The notes under the pieces are model-generated. The model was given only the letters and a program-made list of their open reading frames with translations. It had not been told where the DNA came from and did no database searches. Positions 21,627 to 62,717 of a stretch of DNA of 64,000 nt are shown one piece after another; positions within the stretch are counted from its first letter, which is position 1; every line of letters starts with the position of its first letter. Origin of the DNA: a virus; IMG/VR virus record IMGVR_UViG_3300030099_006533. One strand, given 5' to 3'. The position numbers and the translations under genes are program-made.

Positions 21627-22504
21627 GACTAAGAAGGAGACACATTGCTGGCGTAATTCCAGTTGCAGGCCATGAAGACACCATCGATGTACCATGGTCA
21701 GATTGTATGATGCCGGTAGCACACAACATGCTTGCAATTGAGCGAGCAGTGCTGGAGTGTGCGTATGCTGGGTGTAAAACAATTTGGATTGTTTGCAATG
21801 ATGACATGGCGCCGTTGATAAAAGAAAGGACCGGAGAATACGTTTTCGACCCAGTGTACCACTATCGCAAGGAGAGGTGGTCACATGAGATGAGAAGGGT
21901 GATCCCGATTTTCTATGTTCCGATTCATGCAAAAGATTTGAATAAAAGAGATTGTTTGGCTTGGTCCATCTTATACGGCTCTGTGACGGCCTTCAAGATT
22001 GGCAAAACGCTGAGCGGCTGGGTCACACCATACAGATACTATGTATCCTTCCCACAAGGCGTGTACGACCCATCCCTTGTCAGAGAGCACAGGAATCTTA
22101 TAAAGAAGCAGGAAGTGTTCGCGCTGTCTCACAACGATGAGACTTTCAAAAACAATCACTATTTAGGATTTACTTTTGGAAAAGATGAATGGCTTGCAAT
22201 GCGCCGCGTGATTCGCTCTGGTACAGGAGCGTTCACGTCGGATGATCTAAAAGATGGGCAATATCCAAGGACGTTGCTGCCCTTAGAAGAAAGATACTCA
22301 GCACGCTATTTTACGCTTGACAAAGTAGCAGAACCTGTTAATATAGAACATGTACAGGAGATTGACGACTATTATTCGATTCAAGACTGGGAATCGTATG
22401 TAAAATATATGTCATCAGGAAAAGTTTTAGATTGCGATGTTTCTTACTTGACAAGAGGTAAGAAATTGAATAAAATGTGTATAGACAGTGAGGATATTAC
22501 ATGA
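21623..22504 (+). CDS. Sugar-phosphate nucleotidyltransferase-like protein
   Basis: IAGVIPVAG..MMPVA..AIERAVLECAYAGCKTIWIV matches NTP_transferase N-terminus, with degenerate GxGxR. Confidence 0.55.
   Translation: MRLRRRHIAGVIPVAGHEDTIDVPWSDCMMPVAHNMLAIERAVLECAYAGCKTIWIVCNDDMAPLIKERTGEYVFDPVYHYRKERWSHEMRRVIPIFYVPIHAKDLNKRDCLAWSILYGSVTAFKIGKTLSGWVTPYRYYVSFPQGVYDPSLVREHRNLIKKQEVFALSHNDETFKNNHYLGFTFGKDEWLAMRRVIRSGTGAFTSDDLKDGQYPRTLLPLEERYSARYFTLDKVAEPVNIEHVQEIDDYYSIQDWESYVKYMSSGKVLDCDVSYLTRGKKLNKMCIDSEDIT
22448..22476 (+). promoter_or_regulatory. sigma70-type promoter upstream of dnaE
   Basis: TTGACA-17bp-TAAAAT. Confidence 0.55.
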
Positions 22505-25500
22505 CAGGCCCCAAAATTAAATTCGTTAACCTTCATGCCCACAGCGTGGCAGGTTCTATCTTTGATGCTATCGGCTATCCGTCCGATCATATGGACTTCG
22601 CACACGCTAATGGTCTAGACGCCCTTGCGCTCACCGACCATGGCAACATGAATGGGTTGGCATATCAGGTTCTCCACGGCCGCAAGATGGCCGAAGAGGG
22701 CAAGAACTTCAAGCCTATCTATGGGGTCGAGGCCTATTTCATTCCTTCGCTCGATGAGTGGCGTGACGAGTATGAGCAGGTCATGCAGGACAAGAAGAAG
22801 GCACGCGAGCACGCTAAGGGCAAGCAGTCCGGGGCCACAGTTGAAGATTCCGCAGAGTCCAAGCGTGCCACAAACAATATCCTCAAGCGCCGCTCTCACC
22901 TGATCCTGCTGGCTCAGAACCAGACTGGTCTGAACAATATCTTCAAGCTGGTGTCTGAGAGCTATAAGCCAGAAAACTACTATCGATACCCGCGTATCGA
23001 CTTTGAAATGTTGGAGAAGCATAATGAAGGTATCGTTGCTGCTAGTGCATGCCTTGGTGGTGTGTATGCTTCTGACTTCTGGCGTTCAAGCACTTATGAC
23101 GATGAGGGCAACCGCACCGGCTTCGACCGAGATGCTGCCCTTGAGTCCATGCGAAAGACAACCAGTCGTATGGTTGACATTTTCGGTGATCGCTGGTATG
23201 CCGAGTTGCAGTGGAACAACATTCCAGAGCAGCACCACCTTAACCAGCTTGTTGTACAGGTAGCAGACGAGCATAATGTAAAGTTGATCTCAACCGCCGA
23301 CAGCCACTACCCTAATCCTGATGCCTGGAAGGACCGGGAGCTTTACAATCGCCTCGGTTGGCTTGGTAAGGGCCGGCCCTCATGGGCAGAGGAAGATTCA
23401 GATCTGCCTGTCGATGTTGACGAGGTTGGCTATGAGCTATATCCTAAGAATGGCGACCAGATGTGGGAGTCATACAAGAAGTATTCTGCAATGTGCAATG
23501 AAGAGTACGACGATGACCTTATTCTAGAGTCCATCACGAATACTTACTCTATTGCTCACGACAGAATCGAGAACTTCTTCCCAGACAACACGGTTCGTCT
23601 GCCAGACTTTGTTGTACCCGCAGGTATGTCAGCCACCGATGCGCTGATCAAGCTGTCTATGGACGGCCTGAACGAAATGGGCTTCGCGGACAATCAGGAG
23701 TACATTGACCGCCTCCGCCATGAGCTTAAGGTTATCGATGACCGAGGATTCTCCAAGTACTTCCTGACAATGAAGGCAATCTCCGACCGCGCCACAGAAT
23801 CAATGCTCACCGGCCCGGGCCGCGGCTCTGCCGCTGGCTCGCTGGTTGCTTATGTGCTGCGCATCACACAGGTTGACCCAATCAAGTATGGTCTTCTGTT
23901 CTCTCGCTTCCTGCGCTCTGACGCCACAGACTATCCTGATATCGATTACGATGTGGCTGACCCAATGGTACTCAAGGAGCAGTTGATCGAGGAGTGGGGC
24001 GAGGATACTGTTGCTCCAATCTCCAACTGGAACACGCTACAGCTTCGCTCGCTCATCAAGGACATCTCAAAGTTCTATGGTGTCGAGTATACCGAGGTCA
24101 ACAAAGTAACCTCTGTCATGATGTCAGAAGCCACTCCGCTGGCAAAGCAAAAGCATGGTATCAAGGCTGGTATTTATGCCCCAACTTGGCAGGAGGTTGT
24201 CGAGTTTAGTCCGACGCTTCGTACCTTCCTTGAGACCTATCCAGATATCAAGACTCACGTTGAGACTTTGGTTGGTCAGGTTCGTAGCTGTAGCCGCCAT
24301 GCTGGTGGCGTTGTGGTGGCAGAGAATCTAGACCATCACATGCCGCTGATCAACTCGGGTGGAGTCCGTCAGACTCCGTGGTCAGAGGGTCAGAACGTTC
24401 GTCATCTAGAGCCCATGGGCTTTATTAAGTTCGACTTGCTTGGTCTGGCTTCTCTTCGTATGATTGACGGTGCAGTTCGGCATATTCTCACTCGCCACCA
24501 CGGTATTGAGAACCCGACATTTGCAGACGTCAAGAGGTATTACGATGAAAACCTGCATCCAGACGTCATCAACCTTGATGATCAGGATGTATACGAAAAC
24601 GTATTCCATCAAGGTAAGTGGGCTGGTGTCTTCCAGTTTACTGAGTCTGGCGCACAGAACTTCTGTGTTCGTGCAAAGCCGCAGAGCATTGTTGACATCT
24701 CAGCCATTACGTCTATCTTCCGTCCAGGCCCATTGTCTGCTGGCGTCGATGACCAGTATGTTGAGGCCAAGGAAAGCCCTCAGTATATCAAGTATGTACA
24801 TCCGCTTGTGCAGGAAGTAACTGAGGAGACGTTCGGTTTCCTTATCTTCCAAGAGCAGATTGCTCTTCTGGCTCACAAGCTAGGCAAGGATGTCAGCCTT
24901 GACGAGGGTAACAAGCTGCGAAAGCTGCTTACTAAGAAGGGTACTGGCAAGGGCGCCCGCGAGAAGAACAAGATTCATAAGAAGTTTATCGAAGGCTGTG
25001 TTGAAAAGGGATTGCAGAAGTCCACAGGCCAGCGCCTTTGGGAAACCTTTGAATACTTCTCGGGCTACGGCTTCAACAAGTCCCACGCGGTTTCGTACAG
25101 TATCCTGTCGTTCCAGTGTGCTTGGCTTCTCAACTACTACCCGGCTGAGTGGATCGCAGCATTCCTTGATAAGGAACCTGAGTCTCGCAAGGAGAAGGCC
25201 ATCAGTGTGGCCAAGAACTTTGGTTTCGATATCAAGGCTCTAAATGTAAACACCTCTGGCCGTGTGTGGGAGATTAATGAAGATGGCTCGACACTGATCC
25301 AACCCTTCAGTTCTATCAAGGGGCTGGGTGATGCTGCTATCGATCAGATTCTCGCCAATCGACCGTTTGAAGACATTGAAGACTTCCTGTTCAATGACGG
25401 CATTTCATACTCTAAGCTGAATAAGAAGGCTCTGGATGTGCTCATCCGCAGCGAATCGCTTGACAGCCTGATGGACGAGAGGTTTACTGGCACCAAGCAC

Positions 25501-25962
25501 TTCTGGTCTGCAGTTGCTGTTGACCGGCCAAAGAACAAGAAGAAGTTCCTAGAGAACGTCGAACTATACCGACCCGAAGGGGAGTTCACAGAGGAAGAGA
25601 AGATCCAATCTATTGTTGACCTGACTGGTGTGTTCCCGATGTCTCGCGTTATTGATGATGATATTATGCAGAGGCTTGAGGAGAAGTTCATCCCGCCCAT
25701 TGCCGAATTCGATCCAGACCTGCAGGTGACTTGGTTCATTCCACGCAAGATTGTTCCGAAGAAGACTAAGAATGGTAAGCTTTATTGGATTCTGGAAGTT
25801 ATTGACTCTACCAATGCGTTGACTAAGATTCGTTGTTGGGGTGTGCAGCCTGATAAGGATCGGATTCTTTTGAACCGCCCATATCTAGCAAAGCTAGACT
25901 TCAACACGCAGTGGGGATTCAGCACACGCTCGATTCGCTACAATTTCCGATTGCTCGGATAG
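22501..25962 (+). CDS. dnaE: DNA polymerase III alpha subunit (family C, PHP domain)
   Basis: NLHAHS, ALTDHG, ADSHY, GRGSAAGS, PDIDYD, RHAGGVV, IKFDLLGL, YGFNKSHAVSY. Confidence 0.97.
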   Translation: MTGPKIKFVNLHAHSVAGSIFDAIGYPSDHMDFAHANGLDALALTDHGNMNGLAYQVLHGRKMAEEGKNFKPIYGVEAYFIPSLDEWRDEYEQVMQDKKKAREHAKGKQSGATVEDSAESKRATNNILKRRSHLILLAQNQTGLNNIFKLVSESYKPENYYRYPRIDFEMLEKHNEGIVAASACLGGVYASDFWRSSTYDDEGNRTGFDRDAALESMRKTTSRMVDIFGDRWYAELQWNNIPEQHHLNQLVVQVADEHNVKLISTADSHYPNPDAWKDRELYNRLGWLGKGRPSWAEEDSDLPVDVDEVGYELYPKNGDQMWESYKKYSAMCNEEYDDDLILESITNTYSIAHDRIENFFPDNTVRLPDFVVPAGMSATDALIKLSMDGLNEMGFADNQEYIDRLRHELKVIDDRGFSKYFLTMKAISDRATESMLTGPGRGSAAGSLVAYVLRITQVDPIKYGLLFSRFLRSDATDYPDIDYDVADPMVLKEQLIEEWGEDTVAPISNWNTLQLRSLIKDISKFYGVEYTEVNKVTSVMMSEATPLAKQKHGIKAGIYAPTWQEVVEFSPTLRTFLETYPDIKTHVETLVGQVRSCSRHAGGVVVAENLDHHMPLINSGGVRQTPWSEGQNVRHLEPMGFIKFDLLGLASLRMIDGAVRHILTRHHGIENPTFADVKRYYDENLHPDVINLDDQDVYENVFHQGKWAGVFQFTESGAQNFCVRAKPQSIVDISAITSIFRPGPLSAGVDDQYVEAKESPQYIKYVHPLVQEVTEETFGFLIFQEQIALLAHKLGKDVSLDEGNKLRKLLTKKGTGKGAREKNKIHKKFIEGCVEKGLQKSTGQRLWETFEYFSGYGFNKSHAVSYSILSFQCAWLLNYYPAEWIAAFLDKEPESRKEKAISVAKNFGFDIKALNVNTSGRVWEINEDGSTLIQPFSSIKGLGDAAIDQILANRPFEDIEDFLFNDGISYSKLNKKALDVLIRSESLDSLMDERFTGTKHFWSAVAVDRPKNKKKFLENVELYRPEGEFTEEEKIQSIVDLTGVFPMSRVIDDDIMQRLEEKFIPPIAEFDPDLQVTWFIPRKIVPKKTKNGKLYWILEVIDSTNALTKIRCWGVQPDKDRILLNRPYLAKLDFNTQWGFSTRSIRYNFRLLG

Positions 25963-55466: not shown

Positions 55467-55552
55467 GGCCGAGTGGTGGAATAGGCAGACACGACGGATT
55501 CAAAATCCGTTGCTCATTGAGCGTGCGGGTTCAAGTCCCGCCTCGGCTACCA
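55467..55552 (+). tRNA. tRNA-Leu(CAA)
   Basis: Acceptor GGCCGAG/CTCGGCT, anticodon arm ACGGA-TTCAAAA-TCCGT, long variable arm, T-arm GCGGG-TTCAAGT-CCCGC, encoded ACCA. Confidence 0.95.
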
Positions 55553-60067: not shown

Positions 60068-60107
60068 CATTTTAGTTGTTGACTTTCGCTCCCCCCTGTG
60101 GGATAAT
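60053..60107 (+). promoter_or_regulatory. Phased-hexamer early promoter
   Basis: TTGACA 60053, TTGACA 60064, -35 TTGACT 60079, -10 GATAAT 60102. Confidence 0.85.
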
Positions 60108-60133: not shown

Positions 60134-60472
60134 ATGGGATACCGTTCACAAGTCATGCTCGCGCTTCGGCCAAAGGCCGCTGCACTCTTTTCAACCGTTC
60201 GCGCCCGTGGTGGCGAACTTGCCGCACTACTTGAGGACGCCGCCGAGGGCAACCACAACGATGGCAACGAGTCCTATAACTGGGATCATATCAAGTGGTA
60301 CGACAGTTATTCGTGTGTCGGTGCCATTGAAGCGTTCATGAATCGACTCGATGAAGAAGACATGGAGGAAGAATATCGCTTCATCCGTATCGGTGAGGAC
60401 ACCGAGGACACAGAGCAGCGCGGCTGCGGCTTTGAGATTTACGTTTCCCGCTCGATTGAGTGGTATGAGTAA
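60134..60472 (+). CDS. Hypothetical phage protein
   Basis: MGYRSQV..IKWYDSY..YRFIRIGED; SD AAGGAG. Confidence 0.6.
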   Translation: MGYRSQVMLALRPKAAALFSTVRARGGELAALLEDAAEGNHNDGNESYNWDHIKWYDSYSCVGAIEAFMNRLDEEDMEEEYRFIRIGEDTEDTEQRGCGFEIYVSRSIEWYE

Positions 60473-60510
60473 ACTGTAATCTTTTCAACTACTTACCAAA
60501 GGACTAACAA

Positions 60511-60687
60511 GGGGCGGCTGCACCATACACGGAGTGACCGTTCACTGTCTCTGACGAACGGCATGTAAGAGGAAGACCCCCATCGCCTTTCGGGTATACC
60601 CGACGATGGCCGAACCCTCGACCCGCAAGGGAGTCAAAGCGAGACTAGGCCGAGTGCTCTGAGGAAGCATTCAATCGCAGCCGCCCC
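60511..60687 (+). ncRNA. Structured non-coding RNA candidate of unknown class
   Basis: 11-bp terminal stem GGGGCGGCTGC/GCAGCCGCCCC enclosing four hairpins in an ORF-free gap; strand inferred from GCAA tetraloop and G-U pairs. Confidence 0.7.
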
Positions 60688-60691
60688 GCCC

Positions 60692-60746
60692 TTTACAAAC
60701 TCTTTACAACTTTCCTCTTGATCTTTCCATTTCCCTGTGTGATAAT
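60692..60746 (+). promoter_or_regulatory. Phased-hexamer early promoter
   Basis: TTTACA 60692, TTTACA 60703, -35 TTGATC 60718, -10 GATAAT 60741. Confidence 0.8.
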
Positions 60747-60771
60747 AGTATCACAGTCAAGGAGAACAACA

Positions 60772-60969
60772 ATGACACAGACCCGTTTTGAGCAAGCTAC
60801 CGCACTATCTGAGGCGTTGATCGTCACGCTCGGACTTCAGGCCACGATGGAGGCAACCCGCGAGCAGCTTGCGGAGACACCCGAAGATGATCGCACCGAG
60901 GTCATTGACACGATGATGCAGACCATCGCCACCAGCATGGCTGCACTCGTAGGCACAGCGGAGGCTTAG
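60772..60969 (+). CDS. Small helical protein
   Basis: SD AAGGAG before ATG 60772. Confidence 0.55.
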   Translation: MTQTRFEQATALSEALIVTLGLQATMEATREQLAETPEDDRTEVIDTMMQTIATSMAALVGTAEA

Positions 60970-62513: not shown

Positions 62514-62717
62514 ATGAAGTTTCAGCCCGCCATGTTCGCAAAGGTAGGTGACCTGCTCTTCTGGTCGAAGTATGCAGACATGACCTCGCAGTCTCCGAAG
62601 ATGCACGAGTATGTGGGCATCTGCACTGGGCGCGAGTCGGGCATCGTCCACCTGATCAGCGCAGAGGGCCGAGCGACGAAGCTGAACGAAATATACCTAT
62701 TGATTTCAACTACTTAG
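62514..62717 (+). CDS. Small SH3/KOW-like protein
   Basis: AKVGDLL..VGICTG. Confidence 0.5.
   Translation: MKFQPAMFAKVGDLLFWSKYADMTSQSPKMHEYVGICTGRESGIVHLISAEGRATKLNEIYLLISTT

What the first reader, a model, noticed from the sequence alone, without database searches (positions are those of the whole stretch)
60511..60687. Novel ~177-nt multi-branch structured RNA with twin CUGA(C/G)GA loops and a possible pseudoknot
Seen: a perfect 11-bp closing stem (60511-21/60677-87) encloses four hairpins. P2 is CCGTTC/GAACGG with CTGACGA at its 3' side. P3 is CCATCG/CGATGG extended by TCGGG-TATAC-CCCGA. P4 is CTCG/CGAG with GAC..CC-GCAA-GG..GTC (GNRA loop). P5 is GAGTGCT-CTGAGGA-AGCATTC. GTCTC (60547-51, P2 loop) can pair with GAGAC (60641-45). 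It lies in a 300-nt ORF-free gap, 13 nt after the candidate late motif ACTACTTA and ends 4 nt before the next early promoter. It does not match tRNA, tmRNA, SRP, 6S or a canonical hammerhead by eye. Inference: an undescribed phage ncRNA (ribozyme, protein sponge/antitoxin or regulatory RNA).
Basis: partly seen in the sequence, partly recalled or inferred. Interest (0 to 1): 0.75.

Follow-up and report, generated by a model that had tools for sequence, protein, structure and literature searches.

The report
New pseudoknotted RNA in marine phages
The 177-base stretch is a real, evolutionarily maintained folded RNA with a proven pseudoknot. It sits as an optional insert behind an early gene in a group of uncultured ~200-kb marine phages, matches no catalogued RNA family, and its job is still unknown.

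Summary
Window 60511-60687 (+) folds far better than shuffles (z -4.0; minus strand -1.8). It has no Rfam 15, tRNA or tmRNA match.

I collected about 29 homologous loci from JGI and TARA metagenomes and IMG/VR; 19 were analysed in detail.
- All 19 keep a closing stem (9-19 bp) whose sequence differs between lineages.
- P2 is a 6-bp hairpin that covaries.
- A 5-6 bp pseudoknot joins the P2 loop to the strand after P4. It occurs in 10 different complementary sequence combinations.
- P4 is a tetraloop hairpin.
- P5 is a hairpin with a conserved purine-rich loop.

P3 is lineage-specific and absent in a minimal form. The outer P4 stem is not supported. The "twin CUGANGA loops" are not conserved.

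The RNA lies directly behind one of two early genes and in front of an early promoter. Close relatives have the same gene-promoter junction without it, so it is an optional module.

Function is not shown. My best guess is a stable RNA carried as the 3' tail of an early transcript, with a protein- or ligand-binding core. It is a new family of orphan phage RNA. The scan had flagged this same stretch once before, from an overlapping window.

The parts
60511..60521 (+). P1, 5' strand of the closing stem (GGGGCGGCUGC)
   Evidence: Perfect 11-bp pairing with 60677-87. A closing stem of 9-19 bp is present in all 19 members, with 9 unrelated sequences.
60522..60537 (+). J1/2, an A-rich joining strand. 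Family consensus is about ACUAUA(A/C)A(A)G..A(A/C).
   Evidence: Per-sequence table. Conserved without a pairing partner.
60538..60561 (+). P2 hairpin: CCGUUC (60538-43), 12-nt loop (60544-55), GAACGG (60556-61)
   Evidence: 4 of 6 pairs show changes on both sides; 97% of cells paired. Variants are GGGCUC/GAGCCC, GUGUUC/GAACAC, GGGUUC/GAACCC and AGAUUC/GAAUCU.
60547..60551 (+). Pseudoknot 5' strand (GUCUC) inside the P2 loop
   Evidence: Pairs with 60641-45. There are 10 distinct complementary combinations in the family; 3 pairs have compensatory changes.
60580..60609 (+). P3, a lineage-specific extended hairpin (CCAUCG/CGAUGG plus UCGGG-UAUA-CCCGA)
   Evidence: Present in the window-type sequences, with one compensatory pair in L093. 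Replaced by other hairpins in L092, L096 and G003, and absent in L116, L112 and L129-138.
60622..60631 (+). P4 hairpin, CCC-GCAA-GGG
   Evidence: 96% paired, 2 pairs with changes on both sides. Loops are GCAA, GAAA or GUGA in members that have P3, and UUUG or UUCG in the P3-less form.
60632..60640 (+). J4/PK, conserved joining strand AGUCAAAGC (family: AGU Y R A A R N)
   Evidence: AGU is invariant in A9. AGUY could also pair with GRCU as a small alternative hairpin: 96% paired but no change on both sides.
60641..60645 (+). Pseudoknot 3' strand (GAGAC), followed by the conserved U(A/G)G(C)CGAG
60652..60672 (+). P5 hairpin GAGUGCU-CUGAGGA-AGCAUUC with a purine-rich loop
   Evidence: 2 pairs with changes on both sides within the window type (GCU/AGC against GUU/AAC). 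Divergent members have other stems (CGC/GCG, GUGC/GCAC, GUCGG/CCGAC) closing a conserved loop GGYRAGRACA.
60677..60687 (+). P1, 3' strand of the closing stem (GCAGCCGCCCC)
   Evidence: In L122, L117, L116 and L126 this strand runs into the first TTGACA-like box of the next early promoter.
60134..60472 (+). Upstream early gene 'c0' (112 aa, family MGYRS[QE]V...KWYDSY...F.R.GE), the usual 5' neighbour of the RNA
   Evidence: Immediately upstream in 12 of 19 loci, further upstream in L094, and again in all 10 L129-L138 loci. The AF2 model has pLDDT 86.5 and a ferredoxin-like fold. No Pfam or PHROG match.
60079..60107 (+). Sigma-70-type early promoter in front of c0, the likely source of transcripts that reach the RNA
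   Evidence: Promoter scan. Repeat family D1.
60691..60765 (+). Next early promoter (TT(G/T)ACA doublet, -35, -10), starting 4 nt after P1
   Evidence: Repeat family D1/D2. Scan gives 60718-60746. The same arrangement follows the RNA in nearly all homologues.

Best explanation
SHOWN. Window 60511-60687 (+) is one member of a conserved family of folded RNAs. The family occurs in a lineage of uncultured marine phages of about 200 kb that carry a DnaE-type polymerase.

The common fold has these parts:
- A long closing stem P1.
- An A-rich joining strand.
- Hairpin P2, whose loop forms a 5-6 bp pseudoknot with the strand following hairpin P4.
- An optional, variable P3.
- Hairpin P5, with a conserved purine-rich loop.
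- Several conserved unpaired nucleotides: AGU, and U(A/G)GCGAG.

The element is an optional insert between an early gene (c0, or c8 in one sublineage) and the next early promoter.

INFERRED.
- Host RNA polymerase starting at the early promoter in front of c0 transcribes it as the 3' tail of that mRNA.
- P1, followed by the T-rich promoter-upstream DNA, ends or pauses transcription. It also clamps the 3' end against exonucleases and insulates the next promoter.
- The compact pseudoknotted core persists as a stable RNA domain, possibly cut off at the base of P1.
- The core binds a specific partner, a protein or a small ligand, as an accessory early function such as host takeover or counter-defence.
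- The partner is unknown.
For: Fold: z -4.0 on the + strand only.

Homologues:
- 9 from one metagenome pattern scan, all true.
- 10 IMG/VR contigs found through covariance model R1.
- 10 TARA/ENA contigs fetched by the neighbouring protein, not by the RNA.

Covariation:
- A5: 97.9% paired, 6 pairs with changes on both sides.
- A9: 94.1% paired, 9 such pairs, 0 of 500 shuffles as good on all measures. Slid controls give 31-53% paired.
- The pseudoknot was not part of model R1, yet it shows C-G, U-A and A-U exchanges at three positions.
- G-U pairs in P2 and the pseudoknot, together with the strand asymmetry, argue for RNA rather than DNA.

Optional insert: c0 is followed directly by the promoter or the next gene in L109, L123/124, L111, L114, L115 and L125.

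3' tail reading:
- The stop codon of c0 or c8 lies about 5-60 nt before P1.
- No promoter-like site lies between them in the window.
- An RNA-library contig spans 60363-60625.

Termination: P1 is followed at once by U7 in L101 and U4 in L121 and L117.

Complexity: the conserved junction nucleotides and loop are more than a plain terminator needs.
Against: - No direct evidence of a discrete stable RNA, of its ends, or of any partner.
- The single metatranscriptome contig could come from DNA in the library or from read-through. A second contig carries promoter sequence upstream of the expected start.
- The window copy has no canonical U-tract after P1 (GCCCUUUAC), and the terminator scan finds nothing there. 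That scan only allows loops of 3-8 nt.
- Other early promoters in the window have no stem in front of them, so insulation is not generally needed.
- c0 often occurs without the RNA, and the RNA occurs behind an unrelated gene, c8. This argues against a specific c0-RNA partnership.
Confidence: 0.4

Rival explanations
1. The element acts only in cis. It is an elaborate terminator and insulator, of the promoter-early-stem-loop (PeSL) type, that ends the upstream early unit and stabilises its mRNA. It has no function in trans.
For: - It always lies at the 3' end of a gene and just before an early promoter.
- P1 is long, GC-rich in many members, and followed by T-rich DNA.
- PeSLs in T4-type phages are stem-loop-plus-early-promoter cassettes that flank variable genes (PMC4122927; PMC2839356).
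Against: - A terminator needs only P1. It does not need a covarying pseudoknot, a conserved AGU/GCGAG junction or a conserved 10-nt P5 loop.
- The other ten early promoters in the window have no such stem.
- Relatives manage without the element at the same junction.
Confidence: 0.2
2. The element is a ribozyme: a self-cleaving or self-processing RNA that defines transcript ends, or a relic or derivative of a group I intron domain.
For: - It has a compact multi-helix fold with a pseudoknot and invariant unpaired nucleotides.
- Its sporadic, insert-like distribution fits a selfish element.
- The P4-J-PK3' module CCC-GCAA-GGG-AGU-N6-GAGACUAG recurs in a td-like group I intron (L089). R1 scores it at 21 bits, E about 1e-5.
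- CCC-GNNA-GGG-AGU, the segment just after the P7 5' strand (P7.1 by my recollection of subgroup IA2 introns), is seen in introns of cultured phages.
Against: - No hit to any Rfam ribozyme or to Intron_gpI at E up to 10.
- No split host gene, no P1/IGS and no P4-P6 domain.
- Apart from L089, the shared stretch with introns is only about 13 nt.
- The hammerhead-like CUGANGA is not conserved.
Confidence: 0.12
3. The element is a stand-alone aptamer. It binds a small molecule, either to sequester it (an RNA 'sponge', for instance for a host signalling nucleotide) or to make termination at P1 depend on a ligand.
For: - The architecture resembles riboswitch aptamers. From established knowledge, the SAM-I aptamer is a junction closed by P1, with a pseudoknot between the P2 loop and J3/4.
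- The conserved nucleotides sit in junctions rather than stems.
- The element is expressed from an early unit, when counter-defence functions act.
Against: - It is not upstream of a regulated gene, because a promoter intervenes.
- P1 is far longer and more stable than a switching helix.
- No candidate ligand, and no metabolic or signalling genes nearby.
Confidence: 0.12
4. The element works at the DNA level, as a mobile inverted-repeat element, recombination hotspot or cruciform, and its RNA fold is incidental.
For: - Presence and absence alternate at the same junction.
- It is flanked by an inverted repeat (P1).
- In L122, L117, L116 and L126 the 5' arm is an inverted copy of the promoter's TTGACA box.
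Against: - The terminal repeats are not conserved in sequence; only their complementarity is.
- Internal helices and a pseudoknot covary and include G-U pairs, which would be C-A mismatches on the other strand.
- The fold is strand-specific.
- No transposase or target-site duplication was seen.
Confidence: 0.04

Closest known systems
Orphan small stable RNAs of phage T4 (rnaC/species 1, rnaD/species 2)
   Same: Phage-encoded, folded, 120-180 nt, and non-coding, with function unknown.
   Different: No sequence or Rfam relation. The T4 RNAs sit in the tRNA cluster and are released by tRNA-processing enzymes. This RNA sits behind a protein gene, 5 kb from the only tRNA in the window. Unlike the T4 RNAs, as far as I recall, it also has a proven pseudoknot.
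PeSL cassettes (promoter-early stem-loop) of T4-type phages, PMC2839356 and PMC4122927
   Same: A stem directly upstream of an early promoter, in a hyperplastic region of small early genes. It is associated with presence/absence polymorphism between close relatives.
   Different: PeSL stems are short simple hairpins of conserved sequence. Here the 'loop' is a 95-155-nt conserved pseudoknotted core, and the stem sequence is free to vary. The other early promoters of this window have no stem.
P1-closed junction aptamers with a loop-to-junction pseudoknot, e.g. the SAM-I riboswitch (established knowledge)
   Same: A closing helix, several hairpins radiating from a junction, a pseudoknot from the first hairpin's loop to a downstream joining strand, and conserved junction nucleotides.
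   Different: No Rfam match to any riboswitch. The position is 3' of a gene with no expression platform, and P1 is 9-19 bp.
Segment just after the P7 5' strand in td-like phage group I introns (P7.1-P7.2 by my recollection of subgroup IA2; Rfam RF00028)
   Same: A CCC-GNRA-GGG-AGU hairpin plus trinucleotide. In one uncultured intron (L089) the full 27-nt module, including GAGACUAG, is shared.
   Different: The window RNA has no P1/P10, P4-P6 or P8-P9 core and no flanking exons, and gets no RF00028 hit. In the introns that I read or aligned, GAGAC has no GUCUC partner in a P2-like loop (for L089, for L147; for L148).
Catalogue of 10,006 candidate structured RNAs from IMG/VR (Fremin, Bhatt and Kyrpides 2023, PMC10690425)
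   Same: The same kind of object (a covarying intergenic structure in uncultured phages), screened over millions of viral sequences as here.
   Different: I could not check whether this motif is in that list, because its supplementary files are not held. That paper assigns no function to most entries.

Membership tests
Any Rfam 15 family | Score at or above the family's gathering threshold, or at least a suggestive E-value, against its covariance model | tested here: not met
   Whole window at gathering threshold: only tRNA-Leu at 55467. Region 60300-60900 at E up to 10: only a chance snoRNA match outside the element. Six divergent members at E up to 1: nothing on the element.
tRNA / tmRNA | Cloverleaf or tRNA-like domain recognised by ARAGORN | tested here: not met
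   ARAGORN finds only tRNA-Leu at 55467-55552.
Hammerhead ribozyme | Conserved catalytic core CUGAUGA ... GAAA at a three-way junction | tested here: not met
   No Rfam hammerhead hit. The two CUGANGA strings of the window copy change to CCGAAGA, GGYRAGRACA, CAAAUGA and CUAACGA in homologues.
Group I intron | P3-P7 pseudoknot together with P4-P6, P8, P9, and a match to RF00028 | tested here: not met
   No RF00028 hit for the window or six members. A true intron, L089, scores 26 bits. Only a 13-27-nt module is shared.
Group I intron | Interrupts a gene whose exons join into one reading frame | tested here: not met
   The upstream gene ends with its own stop codon, and a promoter and a new gene follow.
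Intrinsic terminator / PeSL | GC-rich stem followed at once by a U-tract | tested here: inconclusive
   U7 follows P1 in L101 and U4 in L121 and L117. The window has GCCCUUUAC and G003 has AACUUUAU. The scan tool reports none, but it allows only 3-8-nt loops.
Intrinsic terminator / PeSL | Stem directly upstream of an early promoter and repeated at many promoters | tested here: not met
   The stem precedes the promoter at 60691, but the ten other early promoters in the window lack any such stem.
Riboswitch | Aptamer in the 5' leader of the gene it controls, with an expression platform | tested here: not met
   The element is 3' of c0, and the downstream gene has its own promoter between it and the RNA.
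Riboswitch | Binding of a specific ligand | not testable with these tools
   Needs in-line probing or ITC.
Conserved structured ncRNA (general) | Compensatory base changes that maintain helices across homologues, beyond controls | tested here: met
   0 of 500 shuffles reach the observed values, and slid controls give 31-53% paired. P1 has 9 unrelated sequences.
Conserved structured ncRNA (general) | Transcription of the modelled strand | tested here: inconclusive
   One 263-nt contig of an rRNA-depleted seawater RNA library covers 60363-60625. Contigs show neither strand nor ends, and DNA carry-over is possible.

The most novel reading that the evidence does not exclude
The core is a free-standing aptamer or ribozyme with no expression platform. 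In this reading the phage makes it early in infection either to capture a host small molecule (for example an immune signalling nucleotide), as an RNA counterpart of the protein 'sponges', or to carry out a self-processing reaction. It would then be a new functional class of phage RNA rather than a decorated terminator.
Probability: 0.15. Interest if true: 0.85.

Novelty: new variant of a known kind. Interest (0 to 1): 0.6.

Why it matters
Complex folds with a covarying pseudoknot and invariant junction nucleotides are the small subset of candidate RNAs that have historically turned out to be ribozymes, riboswitch-like aptamers or specific protein scaffolds.

This one has several useful properties:
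- It occurs in an abundant but uncultured marine phage lineage.
- It sits in the early host-takeover region.
- It is gained and lost between close relatives, as accessory or counter-defence cargo is.
- It has a natural minimal form of about 95 nt (core) that suits biochemical and structural work.

It also gives a clean example of a long-range closing helix that merges with promoter DNA. That bears on how early transcription units are insulated in large phages.

Tried and rejected
Searches that found nothing:
- Rfam at gathering and E-value thresholds on the window and homologues: nothing.
- blastn of the region, and tblastn of neighbouring proteins, against 50,697 cultured phage records: no match. 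The polymerase is DnaE-type, below 32% identity to any cultured phage.
- No whole genome is held for the window.
- Pattern scan of 185,579 prokaryote genomes: 0 hits, so there is no sign of a cellular or prophage copy with that motif.
- RNA runs X2 and X3: nothing laid; no conclusion drawn.
- R1 on further c0- or c8-bearing loci (L107, L108, L001, L002, L140-L146, L109-L127 without hits): none.
- Supplementary files of PMC10690425 are not held.

False positives and redundant hits:
- R1 hits L102, L103 and L104, and a second hit in L101, look like coding-region false positives.
- A P5-based pattern in IMG/VR only re-found four known members.

Ideas tested and dropped:
- Group I origin. The match to intron L089 rests on one 27-nt module, and other phage introns share only CCC-GNNA-GGG-AGU.
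- The small AGUY/GRCU hairpin is compatible with the data but uninformative, and it competes with the pseudoknot.
- c0 and c8 are unrelated (hhalign probability 0.1).
- Foldseek of the c0 model against the PDB: only weak ferredoxin-like or ACT-like matches, best E 0.013.
- The motifs CAACTAYTTA and AACTATAMAG are not clearly enriched in the window, so a dedicated promoter for the RNA is unproven.

Full report
**1. The observation**

- A perfect 11-bp stem (GGGGCGGCUGC / GCAGCCGCCCC) encloses hairpins at 60538-61, 60580-609, 60622-31 and 60652-72.
- GUCUC (60547-51) in the first hairpin's loop is complementary to GAGAC (60641-45).
- As RNA, the + strand folds to -75.5 kcal/mol. Dinucleotide shuffles give -58.3 +/- 4.3 (z -4.0; 0 of 200 as good).
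- The minus strand gives z -1.8.
- No + strand ORF of 40 aa or more crosses the element.
- It lies between the stop codon of a 112-aa gene (60134-60472) and a repeated early-promoter cassette starting at 60691.

**2. Known families**

- Rfam 15 at gathering threshold finds only tRNA-Leu at 55467 in the whole window.
- With permissive E-values (up to 10), nothing falls on the element.
- ARAGORN finds no tRNA or tmRNA there.
- The region and its neighbouring proteins have no match among 50,697 cultured phage records.
- The window encodes DnaB, ribonucleotide reductase, a DnaE-type polymerase and GroEL. The polymerase is under 32% identical to that of any cultured phage.

**3. Homologues**

- A relative with a complete 203,859-bp genome with terminal repeats (G003, IMG/VR) carries a syntenic but strongly diverged copy right behind the orthologous gene.
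- One metagenome scan with a motif shared by the two copies returned nine loci, all true homologues.
- A covariance model of the core (R1) then found more distant members in IMG/VR records of related phages: L100, L101, L120, L121, L122, L126, L117, L116 and L112.
- Ten TARA/ENA contigs fetched only through the neighbouring protein all carry the short form.
- A scan of 185,579 prokaryote genomes with the motif found nothing.

**4. Structure**

On the 10-sequence core alignment A5:
- 97.9% of cells pair.
- 6 pairs change on both sides.
- No shuffle reaches these values.

On the 17-sequence MAFFT alignment A9, for P2, the pseudoknot and P4 together:
- 94.1% of cells pair.
- 9 of 15 pairs show changes on both sides.
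- 0 of 500 shuffles are as good on all five measures.
- Sliding the partners by 1-3 columns drops pairing to 31-53%.

The pseudoknot was not part of the search model, yet it covaries. The combinations seen are:

| 5' strand | 3' strand |
|---|---|
| GUCUC | GAGAC |
| GUCUCU | AGAGAC |
| GUCCC | GGGAC |
| GUCUUG | CAAGAC |
| GUCUCC | GGAGAC |
| GUCUAA | UUAGGC |
| GUCACC | GGUGGC |
| GUCGCC | GGUGGC |
| GUCUC | GAGGC |
| UCUCC | GGAGG |

Other features:
- The closing stem is present in all 19 analysed members. It is 9-19 bp long, with nine unrelated sequences.
- P5 stems differ between lineages, but they close a conserved loop: GGYRAGRACA, or CYGARGA in the window type.
- Conserved unpaired nucleotides are the A-rich J1/2, AGU after P4, and U(A/G)GCGAG after the pseudoknot.

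- The outer P4 stem CUCG/CGAG is paired in only 53% of cells and competes with the pseudoknot.
- The twin CUGANGA strings are not conserved.
- P3 is lineage-specific. It is replaced in L092, L096 and G003, and absent in a minimal form in which P2 is followed after 3 nt by P4.

P4 has GNRA loops in several members that have P3, though L126 has GCCA. It has UUCG, UUUG or UACG in the form without P3. This would fit a tetraloop-receptor contact between P4 and P3; that is an inference.

A 4-bp hairpin AGUY/GRCU, which overlaps the pseudoknot strand, is possible in 96% of cells. It shows no change on both sides, so an alternative state can be neither shown nor excluded.

**5. Context**

- The gene immediately upstream is the c0 family in 12 of 19 loci, and again in all ten TARA loci. 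In L094 c0 lies further upstream. L090 and L095 are cut off on that side.
- In one sublineage (L100, L101, L120, L121) the upstream gene is instead an unrelated protein of 268-278 aa, c8.
- c0 has no Pfam or PHROG match.
- c0 is nevertheless a very large family: 2,979 clusters at 50% identity.
- Its AlphaFold model (pLDDT 86.5) is ferredoxin-like, with only weak PDB matches.

Many close relatives have c0 followed at once by the early promoter or the next gene, with no RNA: L109, L123/124, L111, L114, L115 and L125. In L140, c0 is followed by a short coding-looking stretch and then a tRNA. Inside the window, the motif CAACTACTTA that precedes the RNA recurs at 62707. There it is followed after 16 nt by an early promoter, which looks like an 'empty' version of the same junction. 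The RNA is therefore an optional module inserted at gene-promoter junctions of the early region.

In L122, L117, L116 and L126 the 3' arm of P1 runs into the promoter's first TTGACA box, and the 5' arm is its inverted copy.

**6. Expression**

One rRNA-depleted seawater RNA library holds a 263-nt contig covering 60363-60625. That runs from inside c0 into P4, with 4 differences. This fits co-transcription with c0. However, contigs give no strand or ends, and a second contig carries promoter sequence upstream of the expected start, so read-through or DNA carry-over cannot be excluded.

**7. Mechanism**

Shown: a conserved, strand-specific, pseudoknotted fold that is optional and sits at the 3' end of an early unit.

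Inferred:
- It is made as the 3' tail of the upstream early mRNA.
- P1 with the following T-rich DNA (U7 in L101, U4 in L121 and L117) ends transcription and protects the 3' end.
- The compact core survives as a stable domain that binds a specific partner.

The conserved junction nucleotides and loop are the main reason to prefer a binding or catalytic core over a plain terminator. Rivals are a cis-only terminator or insulator, a ribozyme, a free-standing aptamer, and a DNA-level element. The last is contradicted by the G-U pairs, the strand asymmetry and the non-conserved arms.

**8. Comparison with known systems**

- The nearest in kind are the orphan stable RNAs of T4 and the PeSL cassettes of T4-type phages (PMC4122927).
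- The nearest in architecture are P1-closed junction aptamers with a loop-to-junction pseudoknot.
- A 27-nt module (CCC-GCAA-GGG-AGU-N6-GAGACUAG) recurs in one td-like group I intron, L089.
- Introns of cultured phages share only CCC-GNNA-GGG-AGU, and no Rfam intron hit exists for the RNA. I record this as an unexplained resemblance, not as membership.
- A 2023 catalogue of 10,006 candidate structured RNAs from millions of viral sequences could contain this motif.

**9. Verdict**

This is a real, new family of complex-folded phage RNA. Function is open.

Noticed in passing
L091:840-870 (- strand), likewise L095, L097, L098, directly 5' of P1: These four loci carry an extra hairpin just upstream of the RNA (GGGGCGUCUGCCGAAGUAGACGCUUC). 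Its first 11 nt are a near copy of the P1 5' strand (GGGGCGGCUGC). This could be a duplicated arm left by recombination, or an alternative partner for the P1 3' strand.
   Followed up: no
L089:2110-2367: A 4.3-kb IMG/VR contig holds a td-like group I intron (RF00028, 26 bits). Between its P7 5' strand and P3 3' strand it carries the same 27-nt module as the RNA studied here. Model R1 scores it at 21 bits.
   Followed up: partly
L140:440-770: In a more distant relative, the c0 gene is followed by a short coding-looking stretch and then a tRNA with a CAU anticodon. The slot behind c0 may collect different small RNA genes.
   Followed up: no
window 60134-60472 and relatives (alignment A10): The c0 protein family (MGYRS[QE]V...KWYDSY...F.R.GE) is very large (2,979 clusters at 50% identity) yet has no Pfam or PHROG model. 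Its predicted fold is ferredoxin-like (ACT/RRM-like).
   Followed up: partly
window 60486-60495 and 62707-62716: The motif (T)TTCAACTACTTA occurs twice in the window, each time between a gene end and an early promoter. Related copies (CAACTATTTAG) precede the RNA in L092 and L096. Whether it is a promoter, a 3'-end signal or a recombination scar is unknown.
   Followed up: partly
window 22501-25962: The replicative polymerase is DnaE-like (PHROG 405), under 32% identical to any cultured phage.
   Followed up: partly
L104:1501-1612 (G004, 52.2 kb): A weak second R1 hit (14 bits) containing AACCCGCAGGGAG lies inside a GAC-repeat coding-like stretch of the same phage that carries L101. It is probably a false positive, but it could be a decayed copy.
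   Followed up: no
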